A DNA stretch of 64,000 nt from a bacterium (GCA_021851895.1 JAJZQJ010000001.1:71338-135337); one strand, 5' to 3'; counted from the first letter of the stretch, positions 5,589-56,241 are shown. Notes: a model not told the origin generated them from the sequence alone. A program made the numbers and translations.

Positions 5589-6049
5589 AATAATATTGCG
5601 TTTAGTTGAGCATGGCACAAGGTTTAAGGAAAGCGAGTGGATGAAATTCGAGGAGCGGGCAAAACTTCGAAGAAGATGTACTTGAAGTACATTGACTGAG
5701 AAGTTTGGGTGCCCGCGACAAAGAAGTTCGCCTCTCGCTTTTCTTAAATAAAAAAGAGCCAGATGCCATGTAATAATGTCGCGATATTATAGCACGAAAA
5801 TTTTTATTTTACAAGGCCAAAATGAATTTTTCACAATGCTATACAACACTTTGCCTCGACGATGATTTTTTTGTTTAGCTAATACATTGTATAGACCCAC
5901 TCAAGTGATACGTGCCCTTCGCGGTGATCAGTACCCCACCGCTCATTCACCGAAGAACTACTTACATAAAAAATATTGCTTTGTTAAGGGATTTTTTTAT
6001 TACCATACCTATTTACAAAATTATGAAATAGTGTTATAGTCGTCCTCAT

Positions 6050-9457: not shown

Positions 9458-9670
9458 ATCAAACGCACCCATCGGGTGCGTTTTTCTTTTCTTTGCATTT
9501 GCATTTCCACCCACAAACACCCATGAAACACTGAGCATTTTTGTCGGCGGTTGCCTCGCTGGAGCCTGACGACGTACAGTGGTACGGCGAAGGCGAAGCG
9601 TGAGGCGACCCCCGTCAAAAAGACCAGTGCCGTACATGGACAGCACGTAATCAATAAATTGCGCAAATTA

Positions 9671-9694
9671 AAAACCCTAAGAAGGGTTTTTAAT
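9671..9694. terminator. Bidirectional rho-independent terminator (rpoD 3' end / convergent plus-strand transcripts)
   Basis: aaAAACCCTaagaAGGGTTTTtaa, overlapping the rpoD stop. Confidence 0.6.
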
Positions 9695-11060
9695 AATTGC
9701 GCAATTTATTGATGTTCTCGTGCTGCCTGATCTTCTCATGCGCTTTCGCCTCGATCTGCCTGATACGCTCACGTGTCACTCCAAACTCCTTACCCACTTC
9801 CTCAAGCGTATGCTGTACACCATCTTCAAGTCCATGACGCATCTCGAGGATCTTTCGCTCCTTTGGAGAGAGCTCCGCGAGTACCTCTTGGATTTGCTCC
9901 GAGAGAATGAGGCGCGAAACCTCTTGATCTGGAGAAAGTATACGTTCATCAGGTATGAATTCGCCGAGTGTTGACTTATCCTCATCATCACCGATCGGCT
10001 TTTCGAGTGAAACCGTATCTTGATCGATGTTCTGAATATTACGCACGCGCTCGACTTCGATGCCCATCTCCATGGCGATTTCCTCAGCCATTGGCTCACG
10101 GCCGAGATCCTGAGTCAAACGGCGGTGCACCTGCTTGTATTTTGCGATCGTCTCAACCATGTGTACCGGAATACGAATGGTACGCGATTGATCAGCGAGC
10201 GCACGGGTGATCGCCTGGCGAATCCACCACGTCGCGTAGGTGCTGAACTTGAATCCCTTTGACCAGTCAAATTTATCAACGGCTCGGAAGAGTCCGAGAT
10301 TACCCTCCTGAATGAGATCGAGCAAAGTAAGGTCTGGGGAACGACCGACATATTTCTTTGCGATCGAAACGACAAGACGGAGGTTTGCACGTGCAAGAAG
10401 TCCCATTGCCTCCTCATCGCCCGCAGCGATACGCTGCGCGAGCTCACGCTCATCTTTTGCAGTAAGCAATGGATACTGACCGATTTCGCGGAGATACATC
10501 TGTGTAGAATCTCCACCTGCACCCTTGCCAAGCTTTCGATTGATAAGCTCCTCATCGGTATGCACATCAAGGAGACCACCTGACTCTATGACATCAACAC
10601 CAAGGTTCGAAAGTTTCTCGTAGATATCATCAAGGAAATCGATATTGTTCTCTATGTCAGGATATGTGCGCAAAATCTCATCATACGTTACAAAGCCACG
10701 CTCCCTGCCGCGATGCACCAGCGACTGCAACTTATCCTCGAGGCCCTTTCGTGCGCGCTCGCCCGTCTTTGGTGGATTCGGTGCAAGTTTTACCTTTTCA
10801 AGCTTCGACGGCTTTGTGCTCGTCTTTGCAGTAGCCTTCTTTGCAGTGGCTTTCGACTGCACAACCTTCTTTGAGGCAGCATTCTTTGAAACAACCTTCT
10901 TGACCGCTGGCTTCTTTGCCGGTGCCTTCTTTATGACAGGCTTCTTCACCGCGACCTTTTTTGTCACGGGCTTCTTTACCACCACTTTCTTTGTGGTGAC
11001 CTTTTTCGCTGAAACAGTCTTTTTGACCGCAGCCTTAGTAGTCTTCTTTGTCGTCGGCAT
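9690..11060 (-). CDS. rpoD: RNA polymerase sigma factor RpoD (sigma-70) with lysine-rich N-terminal extension
   Basis: Regions 1.2-4 are recognisable: [23 protein letters not shown]; [40 protein letters not shown]; [20 protein letters not shown]. The first ~95 aa are KK(P/V/A) repeats. Confidence 0.95.
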
Positions 11061-16757: not shown

Positions 16758-19700
16758 TTAATTATTCTGCGTATCTGAAGCCGCTAACGATGGAGCGCGA
16801 TAGATCGTCTCTTCATCTCCAACGCGCTGCTTGAGCTGCACATCGAGCGCGAGACCACGCAATGTCGCAAGGAGGACATGGAAGGTTGCGGGCAAGCCCG
16901 GCTCCTTGATCTCCTTACCGCGGACGATCGAATCAAATACTGCTGAACGTCCGAGAATATCGTCAGACTTATAGGTGAGCATTTCTCGGAGGATATGCGC
17001 TGCGCCGTATCCCTGGAGTGCCCACACTTCCATCTCTCCAAAACGCTGACCACCTCCCTGCGCACGTCCACCAAGTGGCTGCTGCGTGATGAGTGAGTAT
17101 GGTCCAATTGAGCGCATGTGGATCTTGTCTTCAACCATGTGGTGAAGCTTCAAAATATACATGTAACCGACAGAGACTGGTTGTTCGAAATACTCACCAG
17201 TGCGACCGTCGCGAAGCATCTGCTTACCATCCTCGCGGAAGCCTGCTTTCTTGAGCTCTTCGCGAATCTCCTCTTCTTGAACACCGAGGAATGATGGCGT
17301 AATTGCCTGGTATCCGAGCTTCTTTGCTGCCATACCAAGATGGAGCTCAAAGATCTGTCCGAGGTTCATACGTGATGGGACACCAAGTGGAGTGAGGATC
17401 ACATCTACAGGACGACCATCATCCATGTATGGCATTTCTTCCTGTGGAAGGATCTTGGAGATGACACCCTTGTTTCCGTGACGACCGGCAAGCTTGTCAC
17501 CGACCGAGATGTTGCGCAACTGTGCAACCTCGATATAGATGCGCTTGATGACGCCACTCTCGAGTGCATCACCCTTTTCGCGAGAAAAGACCTTCACGCC
17601 AATGACGCGACCGCGCTTGCCGTGTTCCATGCGAAGAGACGTATCCTTCACATCGCGCGCCTTCTCACCGAAGATCGAACGAAGCAAGCGCTCCTCTGGA
17701 GTAAGCAATGCCTCACCCTTTGGTGTGATCTTACCAACGAGTATGTCGCCAGAGCGCACTTCGGCACCGATGCGAACGATACCCTCGTGATCCAAGTCTT
17801 TCAACTTTGCCTCACCGACGTTTGGAATATCTGGCGTCGTTGACTCTGGTCCAAGTTTCGTGTCGCGTACGTTCACGATGAACTTCTCGATATGTATAGA
17901 GGTAAGGTACTGCTCACGTACGAGTCGCTCATTCAAAATGATAGCGTCTTCGTAGTTGCTTCCACCCCAACTCATGAATGCGACCATAAGGTTCTGTCCA
18001 AGTGCCATCTCTCCCTTATCTGAAGTTGAAGTATCTGCAAGCACGTCACCCTTCTTTACCTTGTCACCAACAGAAACGATCGGTCGCTGATGGAAACAAC
18101 CAGCATCGTTGGTCATAAGGAAATTCATGAGTGGGAAATCCACCTCATTACCCTTACTGTCCTTCAATACGATATGACGAGCGTCAACAGCCTTGATCGT
18201 ACCATCGCGATCCGCGAGAACAACACGACCGGAGTCGCGTGCGATACGTCCCTCAATACCCGTAGCAACGATAGGTGCTTCCGGAGCAATGAGTGGAGTT
18301 GCCTGCTTCTGCATGTTCGAACCCATGAGTGCACGGTTCGCATCATTGTGCTCGAGGAATGGAATTGATGATGTTGCCACTGAGAATGCCTGGTTCGTAG
18401 AAACATCGATGAAATCAACCTGCTTCGAATCAACGATTGACGGGATACCCGCGACACGTGCCTCGATTCGACTTGCAGTGATCTTGCCTGACGCGTCATA
18501 TGGAACTGCGGCATGAGCGATCGTCACGCGCTCTTCCTCGAGTGCGTTCATATAGACGATCTCATTGGTGATCTTACCCTTTACGACACGTGCATATGGA
18601 GTTTCGATGACACCGAACTCATTCGTACGAGCGTACGTTGAGAAGCGGAGCACGAGACCGATGTTCTGACCTTCTGGGGTATGCACTGGACAGAGACGTC
18701 CGTAGTGTGATGAGTGCACGTCACGTACTTCAAGTCCGGCACGCTCCTTGGTGAGACCACCAGGACCCATGGCTGAACAGGTACGGAGCTGCTCCACCTC
18801 GTCGAGGATGTTTGCCTGACCCAAGAGCTGTGAAAGCTGGTTGGTCGTGAAGAACTCCTTGAGACGAGCCTGGAGTGGGCGTGGAGAAACGAAATTGACA
18901 GGAAGCGTCGTATCGCTCTCGGCGGTCGACATGCGATCCTGAATATTGCGCTTCATCTGTGTCATACCAACGCGAAGCTTCTGAAGAAGCATCTCTCCGA
19001 CATATCGGACACGGCGACTACCGAGGTGATCGATATCGTCTTCTCGTGCATTTGGAGTGTGATTCAACTCAGCAACATGGGAGATCGTAAGAACGAGATC
19101 CTCGATCGTAAGGAGGCGCTGCGCGGTTGCCTTATCATCCATAGGAAGATTGAAGCGCTTATTGAAGCGGAAGCGACCGACCGTCGAGAGGTCATAACGC
19201 TCACGCTGAAAGAGCGCACTGATGAGCTCAGCAGCGTTGGTTGTGGTCGTGACATCACCATCACGGATCTTGCGATAGATCTCGACGTATGAATCCTCGA
19301 CGTTCTTTGCAGGATCCTTGGCGAGCGTCTTCTCGATAGCACGCTTCGCATCAGGATTTCCCTTAAAGAGATCGATGAGCTGTTCGTCATTCTTCGTATT
19401 CGCAAAGATGCGCAACAAAGCCGTCACTGGGAACTTACGCTTGCGGTCGATCTTCGCCCAAACGACTTCATCTGCGTCGGTTTCGAGCTCTATCCATGCA
19501 CCACGTGATGGAATGATCTTCGCACCGAAGAAACGGCCTGTCTTGAGCTCCTGCGCAGTAAAGAAGATACCGTATGAACGTGCGAGCTGAGGAACGACTA
19601 CACGCTCCACGCCGTTAACGATAAAGGTACCGCGGACGGTCATCACGGGGAAATCCGCCATGAAGATCTCCTGCGTCTTCTCGATGCCGAGCTGCTTGTT

Positions 19701-19979
19701 CGAGAGCTTCACCTCTGCACGAAGTGGGGTCTCGAGAGAGATCTTGTTCTCACGTGCGTAGTGCTCGTCAAAGCGAGGGGGCAAGAGTTCGAATCCCGTG
19801 AATTCGAGATCGAACTTCTTCTTCGAATAATCCTGTATCGGACTGAACTCCGCGAAGACCTCCTTGAGACCTTCAGTGATCAGCCACTGATACGATTCTT
19901 TTTGTGCCGCAACCAGATCTGGTGCTTCGACCAGCGGCGCGCGATACAAACCGAAATGCTTCTTATTCAACTTCTCCAT
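16758..19979 (-). CDS. rpoB: DNA-directed RNA polymerase subunit beta
   Basis: 1073 aa with conserved RpoB blocks (GRHGNKGVISKI, RFGEMEVWAL). 20-nt spacer to rpoC. Confidence 0.97.
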   Translation of the reverse strand: MEKLNKKHFGLYRAPLVEAPDLVAAQKESYQWLITEGLKEVFAEFSPIQDYSKKKFDLEFTGFELLPPRFDEHYARENKISLETPLRAEVKLSNKQLGIEKTQEIFMADFPVMTVRGTFIVNGVERVVVPQLARSYGIFFTAQELKTGRFFGAKIIPSRGAWIELETDADEVVWAKIDRKRKFPVTALLRIFANTKNDEQLIDLFKGNPDAKRAIEKTLAKDPAKNVEDSYVEIYRKIRDGDVTTTTNAAELISALFQRERYDLSTVGRFRFNKRFNLPMDDKATAQRLLTIEDLVLTISHVAELNHTPNAREDDIDHLGSRRVRYVGEMLLQKLRVGMTQMKRNIQDRMSTAESDTTLPVNFVSPRPLQARLKEFFTTNQLSQLLGQANILDEVEQLRTCSAMGPGGLTKERAGLEVRDVHSSHYGRLCPVHTPEGQNIGLVLRFSTYARTNEFGVIETPYARVVKGKITNEIVYMNALEEERVTIAHAAVPYDASGKITASRIEARVAGIPSIVDSKQVDFIDVSTNQAFSVATSSIPFLEHNDANRALMGSNMQKQATPLIAPEAPIVATGIEGRIARDSGRVVLADRDGTIKAVDARHIVLKDSKGNEVDFPLMNFLMTNDAGCFHQRPIVSVGDKVKKGDVLADTSTSDKGEMALGQNLMVAFMSWGGSNYEDAIILNERLVREQYLTSIHIEKFIVNVRDTKLGPESTTPDIPNVGEAKLKDLDHEGIVRIGAEVRSGDILVGKITPKGEALLTPEERLLRSIFGEKARDVKDTSLRMEHGKRGRVIGVKVFSREKGDALESGVIKRIYIEVAQLRNISVGDKLAGRHGNKGVISKILPQEEMPYMDDGRPVDVILTPLGVPSRMNLGQIFELHLGMAAKKLGYQAITPSFLGVQEEEIREELKKAGFREDGKQMLRDGRTGEYFEQPVSVGYMYILKLHHMVEDKIHMRSIGPYSLITQQPLGGRAQGGGQRFGEMEVWALQGYGAAHILREMLTYKSDDILGRSAVFDSIVRGKEIKEPGLPATFHVLLATLRGLALDVQLKQRVGDEETIYRAPSLAASDTQNN

Positions 19980-20593
19980 ATATAGAGTGTGGTATAGGAA
20001 TACAGTGATTAATAAGAGCTCGACGAATCAGCATAAGTAATCGGTAAGCAGTAATCAGTAATCAGGGCAAATGCACGAACAGTATTCAGCGCATCTAGCC
20101 TGATTACTGTTTACTGATTACTGTTCACTAACTACGAGAACATGACGAAAAAATACCTGAGAGCAAAAAGCCCCTCCAGGTCTCAGTTCAATACGTTCTT
20201 TGTTATGCTGAGTTCTTCAAAGCGTGGATTATACTCAACCAACCAACACCTCCAGCAAGTACTCATTCACGAGGATATGCAAGGCATTATAACGCCTCGT
20301 CCACAGGTTTGTCAAGCAAATATATTGACATTCTGGGGATAAACGCTAGGAAAACTTGTGGATAATGTGTAGTGAATGGCATAACACACTTATATGGCCT
20401 CATTACTACATATATTTATACTGCCCACAACAAAACCCGCAAGCTGTTGCGAGTTTTGTTAAGTTCTAGTTAAACTTTAGATTTTTGATGCAGGTTGCTT
20501 CGCTGGAGCACCCTGAACTCTAGCAAGCCGTATGTGCTATACGGTGAGCGAGTCGGGGTGTGAAGTGAGGCAAGATGCGCAAAAATATGAAGT

Positions 20594-22399
20594 TTAATCC
20601 ATATCGGAGCGGATCATCTTCACAAATACATCGGGAGGAATATGCACGTTTGCTGATTCCTGCATCTTCTTCTTTCCCTTCTTTTGTTTTTCGAGGAGTT
20701 TCATCTTTCGAGTGATATCACCACCATAAAGATACCCGGTGACATCCTTACGAAACGCAGAGAGTTCCTTCGAAGCAACGATACGCCCCATCGCACGTGC
20801 CTGTATCTTGATCTTGACCTGCTGTCGGGGAAGCACTTTATAGAGCTTCTCCACTGCCGCGTCAGCATCATCTTGCATGCGACGGCGAGAGACAACGCGA
20901 GCAAATGCAGGTACCGGATCCCCGCCGACAAGCAAGTCCATGCGAACAACATCCGCGTCGCGCATTCCTGCAATATCATAAGAAAGTGACGCGTAGCCTG
21001 ATGACACTGATTTCAGCCGATCGAAAAATCCTCTCATCAATTCACGTAACGGCATCACAAATTTTATCTGGAAACGATTGTCTCCAAATATGTCTGAGTC
21101 TCCAGTTTCAGCCTCGTGCTCGAATAAAAGCTGTGATACAGGACCAACATAATCAGGAGGCGTAATGATCGAACCATCGATCCACGGCTCACGTATCTTC
21201 TCAATATCCGCATCATCTGGAAAGAGTGCGGCAGAATAGACGATTAGCGGATCTTCCTTCTTGCGCAATTTCACCTCATAGGTGATCGACGGTGTTGTCA
21301 CGACCAAAGCGAGCTGGTGCTCACGACGAAGCCTCTCGGTAACGATTTCCAAGTGCAGCATGCCGAGACACCCACAACGGAATCCGCGTCCTAATGTCCC
21401 CGATGCCTCCTCCTCATAGGTAAGCGCGGAATCCGAGAGCTGAAGACGCTGTAGTGCTTGTCGTAATACATCGAGATCATCCTGGCTCTCAGGGAAAACA
21501 GACGCCCAGACAACAGGTCGCGGCTTCGCATAACCCGGCAACGCTGGTAATGGCTGTTTCGTGAGCGTGACCGTATCACCAACCCCCGCCACACCAGGAC
21601 GCTTGATACCTGTGACAATGTAGCCGATCTCACCTGCAAGTATTTCAGATGCGGGAGTTTGTGCAGGTAAAAAGTGCCCCACTTCGATACCGAAGAATTT
21701 CTCTCCTGCGGCAATGAACGATAATTCCGCACCCTTAGTGATCTTTCCATCCAAAACACGCACATAGAGTATGACTCCGCGATGATTCGAGTACGCGAAA
21801 TCAAAGATAAGCGCTCGCGCGCCAGGCCTTCCCTCGAACTCTTCCTCTGGGGACGGCACTCGATCGACAATAGCATCGAGTAACTCGGGAACACCTGCAC
21901 CGGTCTTACCAGACACCTTGAGTATTGAAGATGGGTCACAGTCGAGCAACTGCACAACCTCATCAACGACCTCAGGTATATCAGCGAGAGGAGAATCGAT
22001 CTTCGAAAGAACAGGTATGATCGTGAGCCCCTGCTCTTTTGCCATAGCAAGCACAGAGAGTGTCTGCGCTTGCACACCCTGCGTTGCATCAACAAGCAAA
22101 ATACAACCCTCGACGGCCTTTTGCGCGCGAGAGACCTCATAGGAAAAATCTATGTGTCCGGGAGTATCGATCAGATTAAGCACGTAATCCTCACCACCCT
22201 TTGTATAGTGCATGCGCACGGGGGTCATTTTTATGGTGATGCCGCGTTCACGCTCGAGATCCATTGAGTCGAGCACCTGAGCCTGCATCTCTCGTGCGCT
22301 GACGGTACGCGTGATCTCAAGCATGCGATCGGAAAGGGTCGATTTACCGTGATCGATATGTGCGATAATACTGAAATTGCGAATATGAGACTTCGACAT
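20594..22399 (-). CDS. lepA: Elongation factor 4 (LepA)
   Basis: IRNFSIIAHIDHGKSTLSDRMLE...LERERGITIK. Length and C-terminal domain are typical of LepA. The conserved N-terminus starts at the second Met (22399). Confidence 0.9.
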   Translation of the reverse strand: MSKSHIRNFSIIAHIDHGKSTLSDRMLEITRTVSAREMQAQVLDSMDLERERGITIKMTPVRMHYTKGGEDYVLNLIDTPGHIDFSYEVSRAQKAVEGCILLVDATQGVQAQTLSVLAMAKEQGLTIIPVLSKIDSPLADIPEVVDEVVQLLDCDPSSILKVSGKTGAGVPELLDAIVDRVPSPEEEFEGRPGARALIFDFAYSNHRGVILYVRVLDGKITKGAELSFIAAGEKFFGIEVGHFLPAQTPASEILAGEIGYIVTGIKRPGVAGVGDTVTLTKQPLPALPGYAKPRPVVWASVFPESQDDLDVLRQALQRLQLSDSALTYEEEASGTLGRGFRCGCLGMLHLEIVTERLRREHQLALVVTTPSITYEVKLRKKEDPLIVYSAALFPDDADIEKIREPWIDGSIITPPDYVGPVSQLLFEHEAETGDSDIFGDNRFQIKFVMPLRELMRGFFDRLKSVSSGYASLSYDIAGMRDADVVRMDLLVGGDPVPAFARVVSRRRMQDDADAAVEKLYKVLPRQQVKIKIQARAMGRIVASKELSAFRKDVTGYLYGGDITRKMKLLEKQKKGKKKMQESANVHIPPDVFVKMIRSDMD

Positions 22400-22427
22400 A
22401 AGTAATGAGCGCATACTAGCATAGAAT

Positions 22428-47793: not shown

Positions 47794-48309
47794 GTATGTT
47801 ATATTGATTGTTATTTTCCCAAAATTTCGATTTCAATGACTGAAGAGCACTAACGTATTATACCTGAGAGATAGTAAATATCACGAGCATGGCTCGTGAT
47901 ATTTGGAGATACGGGGAGAATCTCACGTCGCGATGCGGCGACACGGCTCACAAAGTATCTTGCTCCACGTATTCGCAAGATGCTAAGTGGCCGTCGTCAC
48001 GACTCGCGGCCTCGAAGACTCGGCATCGCTCCGTCTCGCTCAGGGGAAAATGCTCCGCATTTTCTTTCTCCCTTTGCGCCCCAAAGGGGCCCGCACGGCA
48101 CTGCTCCTCTATCTCCTTACAGGAGCTGTACACCTTTTGGATCTTTTGTTTCGAAGACTCACAAAAGTTCTCAAAAGGTCTTGCGCTCTCGCTCCCATAA
48201 GAATGGGACCCATGTGCGAGAGCTCACCCACGGTTCCTAACGCTTTCTTTGAAGACGAAGAAAGCTGTGCTCCTCCACGGGGAACCTCCCCGTTCCCCGA
48301 CCCCTTCGA

Positions 48310-48395
48310 CGTTCGAATCCCCGCGACTCCGCAAAAACAAAAAATGAACAAGCATTCTTGTTCATTTTTTGTTTTTGCGGAGTCGCGGGGATTCG
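48310..48395. repeat. Perfect ~42-bp-arm palindrome formed by an inverted copy of the tRNA-Ser 3' end plus trailer
   Basis: GTTCGAATCCCCGCGACTCCGCAAAAACAAAAAATGAACAAG cattc CTTGTTCATTTTTTGTTTTTGCGGAGTCGCGGGGATTCGAAC; the right arm is the 3' T-loop/acceptor of the tRNA gene itself. Confidence 0.8.
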
Positions 48396-48464
48396 AACCC
48401 CGGATGGCTGTTACACCATACTCACTTTCCAGGCGAGCGCACTAGACCACTATGCGACGACTCC
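48378..48464 (-). tRNA. tRNA-Ser (anticodon GGA), type II with long variable arm
   Basis: GGAGUCG-UC-GCAU-AGUGGUCUA-GUGC-G-CUCGC-CUGGAAA-GUGAG-UAUGGUGUAACAGCCAUC-CGGGG-UUCGAAU-CCCCG-CGACUCC-G; 87 nt, CCA not encoded. Confidence 0.9.
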
Positions 48465-55398: not shown

Positions 55399-55539
55399 TG
55401 GGGCATTATAGCAGAAGCGCGGAAACAATGAAGCACCCTTCATTTTGGCTTCATGAATCGCATTGAAATAGAATCTGAATTGAATTTTCAAATATATGGA
55501 AACGAAAAACCGAAGATTTTGCGTTGAGTGTATTTAAAA

Positions 55540-55680
55540 TATCCGCAAAGCAAAAACTGCAGAATTTGGATGAAATTCACCTCGTTGGAGACAAGAGAAC
55601 TCGAAGGAGATGGGCTCGGCGCCCATTGACTGAGTCTCTTGTCGAAGCGAGGTGAAGTTCGCCAAATTATGCAGTTTTAT
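55540..55680. repeat. Large imperfect palindrome (~45-bp arms) between lemA and htpX
   Basis: aaactgcagaatttggatgaaattcacctcgttggagacaagagaactc ... gagtctcttgtcgaagcgaggtgaagttcgccaaattatgcagtttt. Confidence 0.6.
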
Positions 55681-56241
55681 CTAGAACTTAACAGCAACTG
55701 CATCATGCGCGGCATCTCCATCCGGAAGATCGAAATAATCCATCTTCTTGAAATTGAACATACCGGCAATGATGTTGCTTGGAAATGCCTGGAGTGCGAT
55801 CGAGAGATCACGGACGTTCGTATTATAGAAACGACGTGCTGCCTGGATCTTATTCTCCGTATCCGCAAGCTCACTTTGCAAACTGAGGAAATTCTGGTTT
55901 GCCTTGAGATCAGGGTAGGACTCAGAGAGCGCGAAGATCGACTTCAAGGCACCTGAAAGCCCTGCTTCTTGTGCACCTGCGGTCGCAGGATCATGACTGC
56001 CGCTCATCGCTGCATTGCGTAATTCGACGATCTTCGTAAGCGTCCCCTCTTCATGCTTCGAGTAGCCTTTTACGGTCTCAACAAGATTCGGGATAAGATC
56101 ATAACGGCGCTTGAGTTGAACTTCGATATCCTGCCAAGCTTCTTGCGCACGATTCACCATGCGGACCAAACGATTGTAGGTCGAGATGACAAAAAGCACG
56201 AGCACCACTAATACGATGATAAGTATATATGTAGTAGACAT
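55681..56241 (-). CDS. lemA: LemA-family membrane protein
   Basis: N-terminal TM, YNRLVRMVNRAQEAWQDIEVQLKRRYDLIPNLVETVKGY...; typically paired with htpX. Confidence 0.85.
   Translation of the reverse strand: MSTTYILIIVLVVLVLFVISTYNRLVRMVNRAQEAWQDIEVQLKRRYDLIPNLVETVKGYSKHEEGTLTKIVELRNAAMSGSHDPATAGAQEAGLSGALKSIFALSESYPDLKANQNFLSLQSELADTENKIQAARRFYNTNVRDLSIALQAFPSNIIAGMFNFKKMDYFDLPDGDAAHDAVAVKF

What the first reader, a model, noticed from the sequence alone, without database searches (positions are those of the whole stretch)
20440..20593. Paralogous copy (B) of the structured element, between lepA and rpoB, sharing a 28-nt conserved 5' block
20481-20580 (agaTTTTTGatgcaGGTTGCTTCGCTGGAGCaccctgaactctagcaagccgtatgtgctatacggtgagcgagtcggggtgtgaagtgaggc) shares the block TTTTTG-N5-GGTTGCYTCGCTGGAGC with copy A, with identical spacing.

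An internal hairpin (CCGUAU-GUGCU-AUACGG) is analogous to A's CGUAC-AGUG-GUACG. The stem partners differ in a compensatory way (GCUUC...GAAGU vs GCCUCGC...GCGUGAGGC). Two diverged copies retaining structure argue for a functional RNA family (sRNA or cis-regulatory element) as opposed to a fortuitous GC patch.

A bidirectional terminator (20433-20462) separates it from the rpoB leader.
Basis: seen in the sequence. Interest (0 to 1): 0.6.

Follow-up and report, generated by a model that had tools for sequence, protein, structure and literature searches.

The report
Hairpin repeat family behind stop codons
The flagged sequence is one copy of an undescribed ~130-base hairpin repeat that sits just after the stop codons of housekeeping genes in a small clade of tiny-genome (CPR) bacteria; it is conserved on one strand only and gets replaced between sites, so it behaves more like a REPIN/ERIC-type genomic repeat than a classical small-RNA gene.

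Summary
The 28-nt block occurs exactly twice in the window (0 expected by chance), and both copies fold into long hairpins.

It is not just a pair of paralogs. A covariance model finds four copies in the window, all on the + strand, and eleven more in related Candidatus Paceibacterota contigs.

The full unit is about 127-130 nt: an A-tract, a long interrupted hairpin with conserved internal loops (UGGAG/GAA and a tandem GA/GA), and a U-tract.

- **Covariation:** 96% of cells are paired against 33-41% in slid controls, and 33 of 39 pairs show compensatory change.
- **Strand specificity:** there are 46 G·U and 0 A·C cells.
- **Conservation:** orthologous copies are 81-95% identical where four-fold degenerate sites differ by about 55%.
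- **Turnover:** close relatives have empty sites, copies group by subtype and not by site, and remnants of older copies lie beside newer ones.
- **Position:** insertions lie immediately 3' of stop codons, ahead of the native terminator, with no target duplication. The selected strand is antisense to the upstream gene.

No promoter, transposase gene, Rfam family, or plasmid, phage or E. coli match was found.

Best reading: a new, persistent, REPIN/ERIC-like structured repeat family recognised in single-stranded form. An antisense small-RNA family is the main rival.

The parts
20470..20597 (+). Copy B, full palindrome: outer stem UUAAACUUUAG / UAUGAAGUUUAA plus the core. Its 3' end overlaps the lepA stop codon (20594-20596, - strand).
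   Evidence: Folds. It is absent from the orthologous site in L123 and L124.
20481..20585 (+). Copy B core (b-type), the stretch matched by the covariance model.
   Evidence: 108.8 bits, E 2.6e-26, against 17.5 bits on the - strand.
9537..9620 (+). Copy A. It is a shortened copy in which P2 and the inner loop are reduced, and it lacks the typical A/U-tract outer stem. It lies between the DUF84 NTPase gene (+) and the 3' end of rpoD (-).
   Evidence: 43.1 bits, E 6.7e-09. Gene context.
55553..55678 (+). Copy C (c-type), full palindrome AAAAACUGCAG...UAUGCAGUUUU, with the core at 55563-55667. It ends 2 nt from the lemA stop codon (55681-55683, - strand).
   Evidence: 101.2 bits. Flanks. Pfam gives LemA and an M48 peptidase as neighbours.
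55501..55521 (+). Remnant of an older b-type copy (its 5' end, AACGAAAAACCGAAGATTTTG). It is 21/21 identical to the 5' end of the intact b-type copy at the same lemA site in L137.
5622..5749 (+). Copy D, a degenerate c-type copy with the core at 5634-5736. The 5' half of P1 is deleted. It lies in the divergent region between typA/bipA (-) and a methyltransferase gene (+).
   Evidence: 32.3 bits, E 4.8e-06. Fold. Pfam.
20433..20462 (.). Native bidirectional terminator of lepA (context). It lies between copy B and the rpoB promoter/leader.
   Evidence: Terminator scan. It is conserved and directly adjacent to the lepA stop codon in L123.

Best explanation
Copy B is one member of a lineage-restricted family of non-coding hairpin repeats, about 127-130 nt long, found in a Candidatus Paceibacterota (CPR) clade.

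Shown:
- Each unit has an A-tract and an outer stem with a covarying NNN triplet. This is followed by a conserved lower stem (AUGMA/UKCG with a fixed U·G wobble, then UUGCCnnGC/GCnnGGCAA) and a conserved internal loop (UGGAG/GAA).
- Above the loop lie a variable, fully compensated stem, a tandem GA/GA, an apical hairpin, and then a U-tract at the 3' end.
- Units are gained, lost and replaced at specific places, typically immediately 3' of a stop codon and upstream of the gene's own terminator.
- They are inserted in a fixed orientation and without a target-site duplication.
- Only one strand's fold is under selection.

Inferred:
- The element persists like a REPIN/ERIC-type non-autonomous repeat. 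Its selected strand would be recognised in single-stranded form (most simply as ssDNA) by a trans-acting host or element enzyme that copies or renews it.
- Once inserted, its reverse complement is carried in the 3' UTR of the upstream gene. There the long hairpin followed by a run of 5-6 U can act as an extra terminator or 3'-end protecting hairpin. That would explain the orientation bias at gene ends and the flipped orientation inside an operon.
For: Family and structure:
- There are 4 copies in the window and 11 in relatives.
- 96.3% of cells are paired against 33-41% in slid controls. 33 of 39 pairs change on both sides. 0 of 500 shuffles reach the observed values.

Strand specificity:
- There are 46 G·U and 0 A·C cells. 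Excluding the two conserved wobble columns, the count is 24 to 0.
- The first 8 copies found were each folded on both strands as RNA, and all 8 were more stable on the modelled strand. 4 of 4 tested were also more stable as DNA.
- This holds although that strand is the C-rich one.

Mobility and turnover:
- The lepA site is filled in the window and L122 and empty in L123 and L124.
- The M48, RNase J and nadE-NAPRTase sites also show filled/empty pairs, with native terminators intact.
- L122b (lepA site) is 90% identical to L131 (release-factor site) but only 79% identical to winB at the same lepA site. winC (lemA site) is 86% identical to L123c (response-regulator site) but 56-57% identical to the lemA-site copies in L135 and L137.
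- Remnants of older copies lie beside intact ones at three sites.

Persistence:
- L135C and L137C are 94.6% identical and winB and L122b are 80.6% identical, while four-fold sites in the neighbouring genes differ by 55-56%. 15 of 16 changed pairs remain paired.

Position and orientation:
- The palindrome starts 0-2 nt after the stop codons of lepA, lemA, M48 peptidase, RNase J, yqeY and a release-factor gene.
- The modelled strand is antisense to the upstream gene at 8 of 8 independent gene-end sites. The one operon-internal copy is flipped and lacks a U-tract in the sense direction.
- An uninterrupted run of at least 5 U follows the hairpin on the gene-sense strand in 7 of 12 typical copies.

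Precedent:
- REPINs have conserved arms, a compensated spacer, hairpins in ssDNA or mRNA, and insertion next to existing copies. They are cleaved as ssDNA by RAYTs, persist vertically for long periods, and affect termination and mRNA stability.
Against: - No transposase, RAYT or reverse transcriptase gene was seen in about 84 kb of this genome or in the relatives' loci.
- Copy number is low, at 4 copies in about 84 kb. Copies within one genome are very diverged (46-80% identity). REPIN populations, by contrast, are dominated by a master sequence.
- The arms contain no REP-like sub-palindrome.
- The lemA-site copy looks ancestral to three lineages and is 95% conserved. A purely selfish element is not expected to show this, and it points to a host-level function acting on the selected strand.
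- By GC skew and gene orientation, the selected strand is probably the leading-strand template. IS200/IS605-type ssDNA elements use the lagging-strand template (the skew is; the rest rests on established knowledge).
- Copy B itself has only 3 U followed by AA after the hairpin on either strand. It is followed by lepA's own terminator, so terminator activity cannot be general.
Confidence: 0.5

Rival explanations
1. A family of small structured RNA genes transcribed from the modelled strand, convergent with and antisense to the 3' ends of the neighbouring genes. They would act in trans, through the conserved UGGAG/GAA and GA/GA loops and probably with a protein partner, or in cis as antisense regulators of the adjacent mRNA 3' end.
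For: - The selection pattern is RNA-like. G·U makes up 9% of paired cells and there are no A·C cells.
- Loops are conserved and a U·G wobble is invariant.
- Conservation is far above the synonymous rate, with compensatory changes between orthologs.
- The hairpin is followed by U3-5 on this strand.
- In the nadE-NAPRTase operon copy, this strand is certainly transcribed.
Against: - No promoter is conserved upstream, and the flanks of non-orthologous copies are unrelated.
- Copy B has lepA's bidirectional terminator immediately upstream on this strand.
- Covariation extends into the outer stem and A-tract. A transcript starting from the only internal -10-like hexamer (nAGAWT) would exclude these.
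- Loss, gain and replacement among close relatives is unusual for essential RNA genes.
- No Rfam family matches.
Confidence: 0.25
2. Host-encoded elaborate terminator or 3'-UTR stabiliser modules. They would function only as RNA in the sense mRNA of the upstream gene and would spread by duplication or recombination, not by a dedicated mobility mechanism.
For: - The layout is an A-tract, a hairpin and a U-tract.
- The hairpin starts 0-2 nt after stop codons.
- A run of 5-6 U follows it on the gene-sense strand in 7 of 12 typical copies.
- The orientation is flipped inside an operon.
Against: - The fold under selection is on the other strand. All 46 wobble cells are C·A mismatches in the sense mRNA, and none is the reverse.
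- Native terminators are retained just downstream at the lepA, M48 and RNase J sites, so the element is not needed for termination there.
- Copy B lacks a usable U-tract.
Confidence: 0.15
3. A chance resemblance between two GC-rich intergenic patches, or a short conserved peptide gene (MQVASLE...).
For: In five of the first copies, an in-frame ATG or TTG precedes the conserved block.
Against: - The block has 0 expected chance matches, and there are 15 copies with strong covariation.
- The ATG is absent in L135 and L137, which read GAUACA there. ORF lengths range from 11 to 52 aa with unrelated tails. All codon changes are mirrored on the 3' arm.
Confidence: 0.01

Closest known systems
REPINs (REP doublets forming hairpins) mobilised in trans by RAYT tyrosine transposases
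   Same: - Non-coding intergenic hairpins of about 100 nt.
- Two conserved arms around a less conserved spacer that keeps pairing through compensatory changes.
- New copies insert into or next to existing copies.
- Long vertical persistence.
- Recognition of single-stranded DNA.
- Reported side-effects on termination and mRNA stability (PMC3116915; bioRxiv 10.1101/2021.07.10.451892).
   Different: - No REP sub-palindrome or abundant 16-25-mer.
- Low copy number (4 in about 84 kb), with copies only 46-80% identical within a genome.
- Conserved asymmetric internal loops.
- A-tract and U-tract ends.
- A precise position after stop codons.
- No RAYT gene seen in the sequence available.
- The host is a CPR bacterium.
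ERIC/IRU elements of Enterobacteriaceae (about 127-bp imperfect palindromes in transcribed intergenic regions)
   Same: Similar size, imperfect-palindrome shape and location in transcribed intergenic DNA next to genes. Occupancy also varies between relatives (the ERIC properties are from my own knowledge).
   Different: There is no sequence similarity: no match in 5,426 E. coli genomes. The host phylum differs. Here the strand asymmetry and the stop-codon adjacency were measured directly.
Intrinsic (Rho-independent), often bidirectional, terminators
   Same: An A-tract, a stem-loop and a U-tract placed right after a stop codon.
   Different: - The hairpin has about 53 pairs with conserved internal loops, not a 5-15 bp GC stem.
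- The selected strand is antisense to the gene.
- Native terminators persist downstream.
- The sequence is repeated and turns over between sites.
Integron attC sites
   Same: Strand-specific single-stranded hairpins with conserved basal boxes, an unpaired internal spacer and a variable apical part. They lie just downstream of ORF stop codons and have a uniform orientation (from my own knowledge).
   Different: There are no RYYYAAC/GTTRRRY core sites. The neighbours are core housekeeping genes, not cassettes. Copies lie 10-35 kb apart. No integrase gene was seen.

Membership tests
REPIN / RAYT system | Two conserved inverted arms separated by a less conserved spacer that keeps hairpin pairing through compensatory changes | tested here: met
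   The conserved lower stem and loops flank a variable P2 and apical stem. 33 of 39 pairs show changes on both sides.
REPIN / RAYT system | Each arm is a REP: a short imperfect palindrome present as a highly abundant near-identical 16-25-mer | tested here: not met
   No sub-palindrome is conserved in the arms. There are only 4 copies in about 84 kb. Identity between copies within a genome is 46-80%.
REPIN / RAYT system | A single-copy RAYT (Y1/HUH transposase) gene in the same genome, flanked by the repeats | tested here: inconclusive
   None was found among the window ORFs or the called genes of the loci. However, less than 10% of any genome could be examined.
REPIN / RAYT system | New copies inserted into or next to existing copies | tested here: met
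   Remnants lie beside intact copies at the lemA site (window 55501-55521, and L137) and at the response-regulator site (L122).
MITE (DDE-transposase derived) | Target-site duplication flanking the element | tested here: not met
   No duplication is seen at four filled/empty comparisons: lepA, M48, RNase J and nadE-NAPRTase.
MITE (DDE-transposase derived) | Conserved terminal inverted repeats matching a parent IS element | tested here: not met
   The termini are A/U tracts plus a variable NNN, and the conserved sequence is internal. No IS element was seen, and there is no plasmid, phage or viral match.
ERIC / IRU | Homology to the ERIC consensus | tested here: not met
   There is no blastn match in the complete E. 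coli genomes.
Intrinsic terminator | A stable hairpin immediately followed by a U-tract on the transcribed strand | tested here: inconclusive
   A run of at least 5 U follows the hairpin on the gene-sense strand in 7 of 12 typical copies, but not in copy B. The hairpin is atypically long, and activity is not testable here.
Independent small-RNA gene | Its own promoter upstream of the structured strand, conserved among copies | tested here: not met
   No sigma-70-like site was found upstream of A or B on the + strand. The flanks of different copies are unrelated.
Independent small-RNA gene | A discrete transcript from that strand | not testable with these tools
   No expression data are available.
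Any Rfam family | A covariance-model match at or near the gathering score | tested here: not met
   Only a tRNA is found in the window at gathering thresholds. Permissive scans over copies A, B, C and over L137 give nothing relevant.
Integron attC | R''/R' core sites (RYYYAAC ... GTTRRRY) and a cassette/integrase context | tested here: not met
   Read directly from the sequence, the basal boxes are AUGMA/UKCG and UUGCC/GGCAA. The neighbours are lepA, rpoB, lemA, rnj and similar genes.

The most novel reading that the evidence does not exclude
The elements are genes or modules for a new class of structured RNA of about 105-130 nt, made from the strand antisense to housekeeping-gene 3' ends in CPR bacteria.

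The RNA would be one of two things. It could be a conserved protein-binding antisense RNA family that controls the 3' ends of neighbouring mRNAs. Or it could be an RNA-level mobile element whose folded transcript is what gets copied into new stop-codon-adjacent sites.

This reading would explain three things: the 46:0 G·U to A·C asymmetry, the invariant loop nucleotides, and conservation far above the synonymous rate.
Probability: 0.2. Interest if true: 0.7.

Novelty: new member of a known kind. Interest (0 to 1): 0.45.

Why it matters
CPR/Patescibacteria genomes are about 1 Mb, tightly packed, and generally regarded as poor in repeats and in known non-coding RNAs. Here a structured repeat is kept at one copy per roughly 20 kb and is conserved far better than synonymous sites. 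It is selected on one strand only and is placed with near-nucleotide precision between stop codons and terminators.

If it is REPIN-like, persistent hairpin "replicators" would extend to an episymbiotic candidate phylum. That would also imply an unidentified enzyme that recognises single strands.

If instead the antisense strand is expressed, it would be a new RNA family in organisms where very few are known.

In either case the covariance model gives a ready marker for strain typing and for studying genome dynamics in this clade.

Tried and rejected
- **17-mer scan of genome contigs.** The 120 loci returned were chance matches in GC-rich genomes. None had the T-run prefix together with the 3' partner, apart from the window's own contig.
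- **Metagenome scan with a 40-bit gapped pattern.** It gave 8 hits, of which only 1 is a true copy (L131). The pattern was too strict for variants such as GAUACA.
- **Viral contigs, plasmids, phages and E. coli genomes.** No matches.
- **Rfam.** Nothing at gathering thresholds or in permissive scans.
- **Short peptide ORF.** Rejected because the start codon is not conserved and the tails are unrelated.
- **Hammerhead-like CUGANGA...GAA in copy A.** Not conserved in the other copies, as read.
- **K-turn readings of the UGGAG/GAA and GA/GA loops.** The required 3-nt bulge followed by GA is not in register. This was reasoned by hand.
- **Promoter for the modelled strand.** There is only a weak, partly conserved nAGAWT hexamer inside the outer stem, and no -35 element.
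- **Target-site duplication.** None was found. A possible TTAA at the lepA site is not reproduced elsewhere.
- **CM hit at 48306-48405.** It scores equally on both strands and is not a family member. It is an inverted duplication of the tRNA-Ser 3' end.
- **Orientation versus replication direction.** This could not be separated from orientation versus gene direction. The GC skew in L136 and L137 is uninformative, and no copies lie beyond the gene-direction switch in this genome.

Full report
**1. The observation**

The block TTTTTG-N5-GGTTGCYTCGCTGGAGC occurs exactly twice in the 64-kb window, at 9538 and 20482, both on the + strand. No match occurs in 100 dinucleotide shuffles.

Both regions fold into long hairpins that are far more stable than shuffled controls. 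Copy B gives -56.1 kcal/mol (z -7.9) and copy A gives -44.3 kcal/mol (z -4.7). The + strand is the better-folding strand.

The TTTTTG run is not a free motif. It pairs with a 3' CAAAAA, and the N5 pairs with a covarying 3' partner.

Pfam confirms the neighbouring genes. lepA (20594-22414, -) and rpoB (16758-19979, -) flank copy B. A DUF84 NTPase gene (+) and rpoD (-) flank copy A.

The hairpin and T-run at 20438-20451 is found by the terminator scan. A perfect TTGACA-N18-TATAAT promoter for rpoB lies at 20315..20286.

The window comes from a Candidatus Paceibacterota (Parcubacteria, CPR) metagenome contig.

**2. It is a dispersed family**

LepA orthologs led to syntenic contigs.

L122 carries an ortholog of copy B in which the inner stem is changed on both sides (GCACCCUGA/UCGGGGUGU becomes GCAUGCGA/UCGCAUGC). 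L122 and L123 carry further copies between a response-regulator gene and a DUF192 gene.

A covariance model built from five copies finds four copies in the window, all on the + strand:
- B at 20481-20585 (108.8 bits)
- C at 55563-55667 (101.2 bits)
- A at 9537-9620 (43.1 bits)
- a degenerate copy D at 5634-5736 (32.3 bits)

The - strand of the same places scores only 17-22 bits.

More copies appear in loci reached through LemA and DUF84 orthologs: one in L135, three in under 5 kb of L137, three in L136, and one in L131.

Ten kilobases beyond each end of the window in the same genome add no copies, so density is about 4 per 84 kb. L124/L139 (LepA 90% identical) and L126 (76%) have none.

The family is therefore confined to a narrow clade. 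A metagenome-wide pattern scan found only one extra true copy.

There is no match to Rfam, to viral contigs, plasmids or phages, or to E. coli genomes.

**3. Anatomy**

It reads (A)AAAAC-NNN-AG | 105-nt core | UAU-NNN-GUUU(U), about 127-130 nt in all. The NNN triplets pair and differ from copy to copy.

The core consists of these parts:
- a stem AWUUKGG/CCMAAAW
- a bulged A
- a stem AUGMA/UKCG, with a U·G wobble in 13 of 14 copies
- a stem UUGCCnnGC/GCnnGGCAA
- an internal loop with nearly invariant UGGAG opposite GAA
- a 9-bp stem of free but compensated sequence
- a CUC/GAG stem
- a tandem GA/GA
- a 5-7-bp apical hairpin

Two main subtypes exist. The b-type carries ...CUCUAGCGAG[hairpin]UGAGCGAG.... 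The c-type carries ...CUCGAAGGAGA[hairpin]UUGACUGAG....

One copy in L136 carries about 100 extra nucleotides at the apex.

**4. Structure is under selection, on one strand only**

On the 14-copy model alignment, 96.3% of cells form standard pairs, against 33-41% when partners are slid by 1-3 columns. 33 of 39 pairs show changes on both sides. None of 500 shuffles reaches the observed values. The alignment is fitted to the model, but the margin over the slid controls is very large.

Classifying every cell gives 468 Watson-Crick, 46 G·U, 0 A·C and 20 other. Excluding the two conserved wobble columns, the count is still 24 G·U to 0 A·C.

A transition in a stem gives G·U on one strand and A·C on the other. 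The result therefore means that only the modelled strand's fold is protected.

The first eight copies found were each folded on both strands as RNA. All eight were more stable on the modelled strand, with summed energies of -563 against -456 kcal/mol. Four of four tested were also more stable as DNA.

The modelled strand is the C-rich strand of the window (GC skew -0.04 to -0.12). The usual leading-strand mutation bias would therefore produce the opposite asymmetry, so selection is the better explanation.

**5. Conservation in place**

Four-fold degenerate sites differ by 56% between the lepA genes of the window and L122, and by 55% between the lemA genes of L135 and L137.

Yet the elements next to those genes are 80.6% and 94.6% identical over 129 nt. 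In total, 15 of 16 changed pairs remain paired, ten of them through changes on both sides. Similarity stops at the edges of the palindrome.

**6. Turnover and movement**

- **lepA site:** L123 and L124 have the stop codon directly followed by the terminator. The window and L122 have about 135-145 extra nucleotides there.
- **M48 peptidase and RNase J sites:** filled and empty genomes both retain the native terminator. The element lies exactly between the stop codon and that terminator.
- **nadE to NAPRTase:** L137 has the element in a spacer that is 8 nt long in L135.
- **Subtype versus site:** copies group by subtype, not by site. L122b (lepA site) is 90% identical to L131 (release-factor site) but only 79% identical to winB (lepA site). 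winC (lemA site) is 86% identical to L123c (response-regulator site) but only 56-57% identical to the lemA-site copies of L135 and L137.
- **Remnants:** in the window the c-type copy C is followed by a 21-nt remnant (55501-55521) that matches the end of L137's b-type copy at the same site 21/21. L122 has a truncated c-type half next to its intact copy. L137 has an older remnant beyond its lemA copy. In all three cases the remnant is the end distal to the stop codon. This fits repeated insertion next to the stop codon followed by deletion of the older copy.
- **Negative findings:** no target-site duplication is seen. No transposase gene is seen in any sequence examined (and the gene tables).

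**7. Position and orientation**

On the sense strand of the neighbouring gene, the palindrome begins 0-2 nt after the stop codon of lepA, lemA (three genomes), M48 peptidase, RNase J, yqeY and a release-factor gene. The stop codon's A residues often form part of the A-tract.

At eight of eight independent gene-end sites, the modelled strand is antisense to the upstream gene. The strand that is sense to that gene carries an uninterrupted run of at least 5 U after the hairpin in 7 of 12 typical copies. The modelled strand usually has only 3-5 U.

The single operon-internal copy (nadE to NAPRTase) has the opposite orientation. It has no U-tract in the direction of operon transcription.

This pattern fits an element whose reverse complement behaves as a terminator or 3' hairpin in the host mRNA, so that only compatible orientations survive. 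It would also fit a strand-specific insertion mechanism. The two could not be separated.

**8. Interpretation**

Together, the data describe a structured, strand-specific, persistent but mobile repeat.

The closest described behaviour is that of REPINs. These have conserved arms and a compensated spacer, form hairpins "in ssDNA or mRNA", and insert next to existing copies. They are mobilised in trans by a single-copy RAYT that cleaves single-stranded REP DNA, and they persist vertically for a long time (PMC3116915; bioRxiv 10.1101/2021.07.10.451892).

ERIC elements are the closest in size and shape. However, there is no homology to them, and the element fails the REP-unit criterion. Classical MITE criteria (target duplication, conserved termini) are also not met.

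My preferred mechanism is recognition of the folded modelled strand, most simply as single-stranded DNA, by an unidentified trans-acting enzyme. This would come with a secondary terminator or 3'-UTR effect on the host gene. Only the structure, the strand specificity, the turnover and the positional rules are shown. The enzyme, the nature of the single strand (DNA or RNA) and the terminator activity are inferred.

The RNA-like wobble pattern, the invariant loops and the above-neutral conservation favour it. Three things count against it:
- there is no conserved promoter;
- a terminator lies immediately upstream of copy B on that strand;
- pairing reaches beyond any internal start site.

I give about 0.5 to the repeat model, 0.25 to the antisense-RNA model, and 0.15 to a purely sense-mRNA terminator module. 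The 46:0 asymmetry contradicts that last model.

**9. Verdict**

The family is new to Rfam and to the collections searched. It is best filed as a new member of the known kind "dispersed palindromic intergenic repeats", with unusual features: single-strand selection antisense to host genes, precise placement at stop codons, and a CPR host. These make it moderately interesting.

Noticed in passing
window 48306-48405 (tRNA-Ser(GGA) gene at 48377-48464, - strand): This is a near-perfect inverted repeat of about 100 nt. The 3' end of tRNA-Ser (GTTCGAATCCCCGCGACTCCG) is duplicated in inverted orientation around an A/T-run hairpin. It resembles an att-like partial tRNA duplication fused to a terminator. 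The covariance model hit it equally on both strands, and it is not a family member.
   Followed up: partly
window 19980-20285, - strand (rpoB 5' leader): A leader of about 300 nt follows a perfect TTGACA-N18-TATAAT promoter (20315..20286). It folds into a long hairpin built from AGTAATC/AGTAAAC heptad repeats around 20020-20130. The fold gives -99 kcal/mol with z -5. The whole-window Rfam gathering scan found nothing there.
   Followed up: partly
L136 18325-18515, - strand: This copy of the element carries about 100 extra nucleotides at the apical position. The extra stretch is itself an inverted repeat (GGGGTCAGACCC ... GGGTCTGACCCC).
   Followed up: no
L140 16888-19043 (same genome, about 5-7 kb beyond the right end of the window): An operon encodes an S24 peptidase, a bAvd/23S-rRNA-IVP-like four-helix protein (PF22296/PF05635) and a Y-family polymerase. 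It lies next to a gene for a 6297-aa DUF2341 protein.
   Followed up: no
window 9690-11060, - strand (rpoD): The primary sigma factor has a lysine-rich N-terminal extension that matches the histone-H1-like HC2 family (PF07382, E 1.8e-08, below the gathering score). The same hit appears in relatives L124 and L141.
   Followed up: no
window 9646-9713: A long AT-rich inverted repeat (AATAAATTGCGCAAATTAAAAACCC...GGGTTTTTAATAATTGCGCAATTTATT) overlaps the rpoD stop codon. A second small hairpin with a T-run follows it. Together they form a double terminator between rpoD and copy A.
   Followed up: no
L135, about 10800-10835, upstream of the M48 peptidase gene: A perfect TATAAT lies only about 6 nt before the apparent ATG of the M48 peptidase gene, which suggests a leaderless mRNA (read from the sequence).
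   Followed up: no
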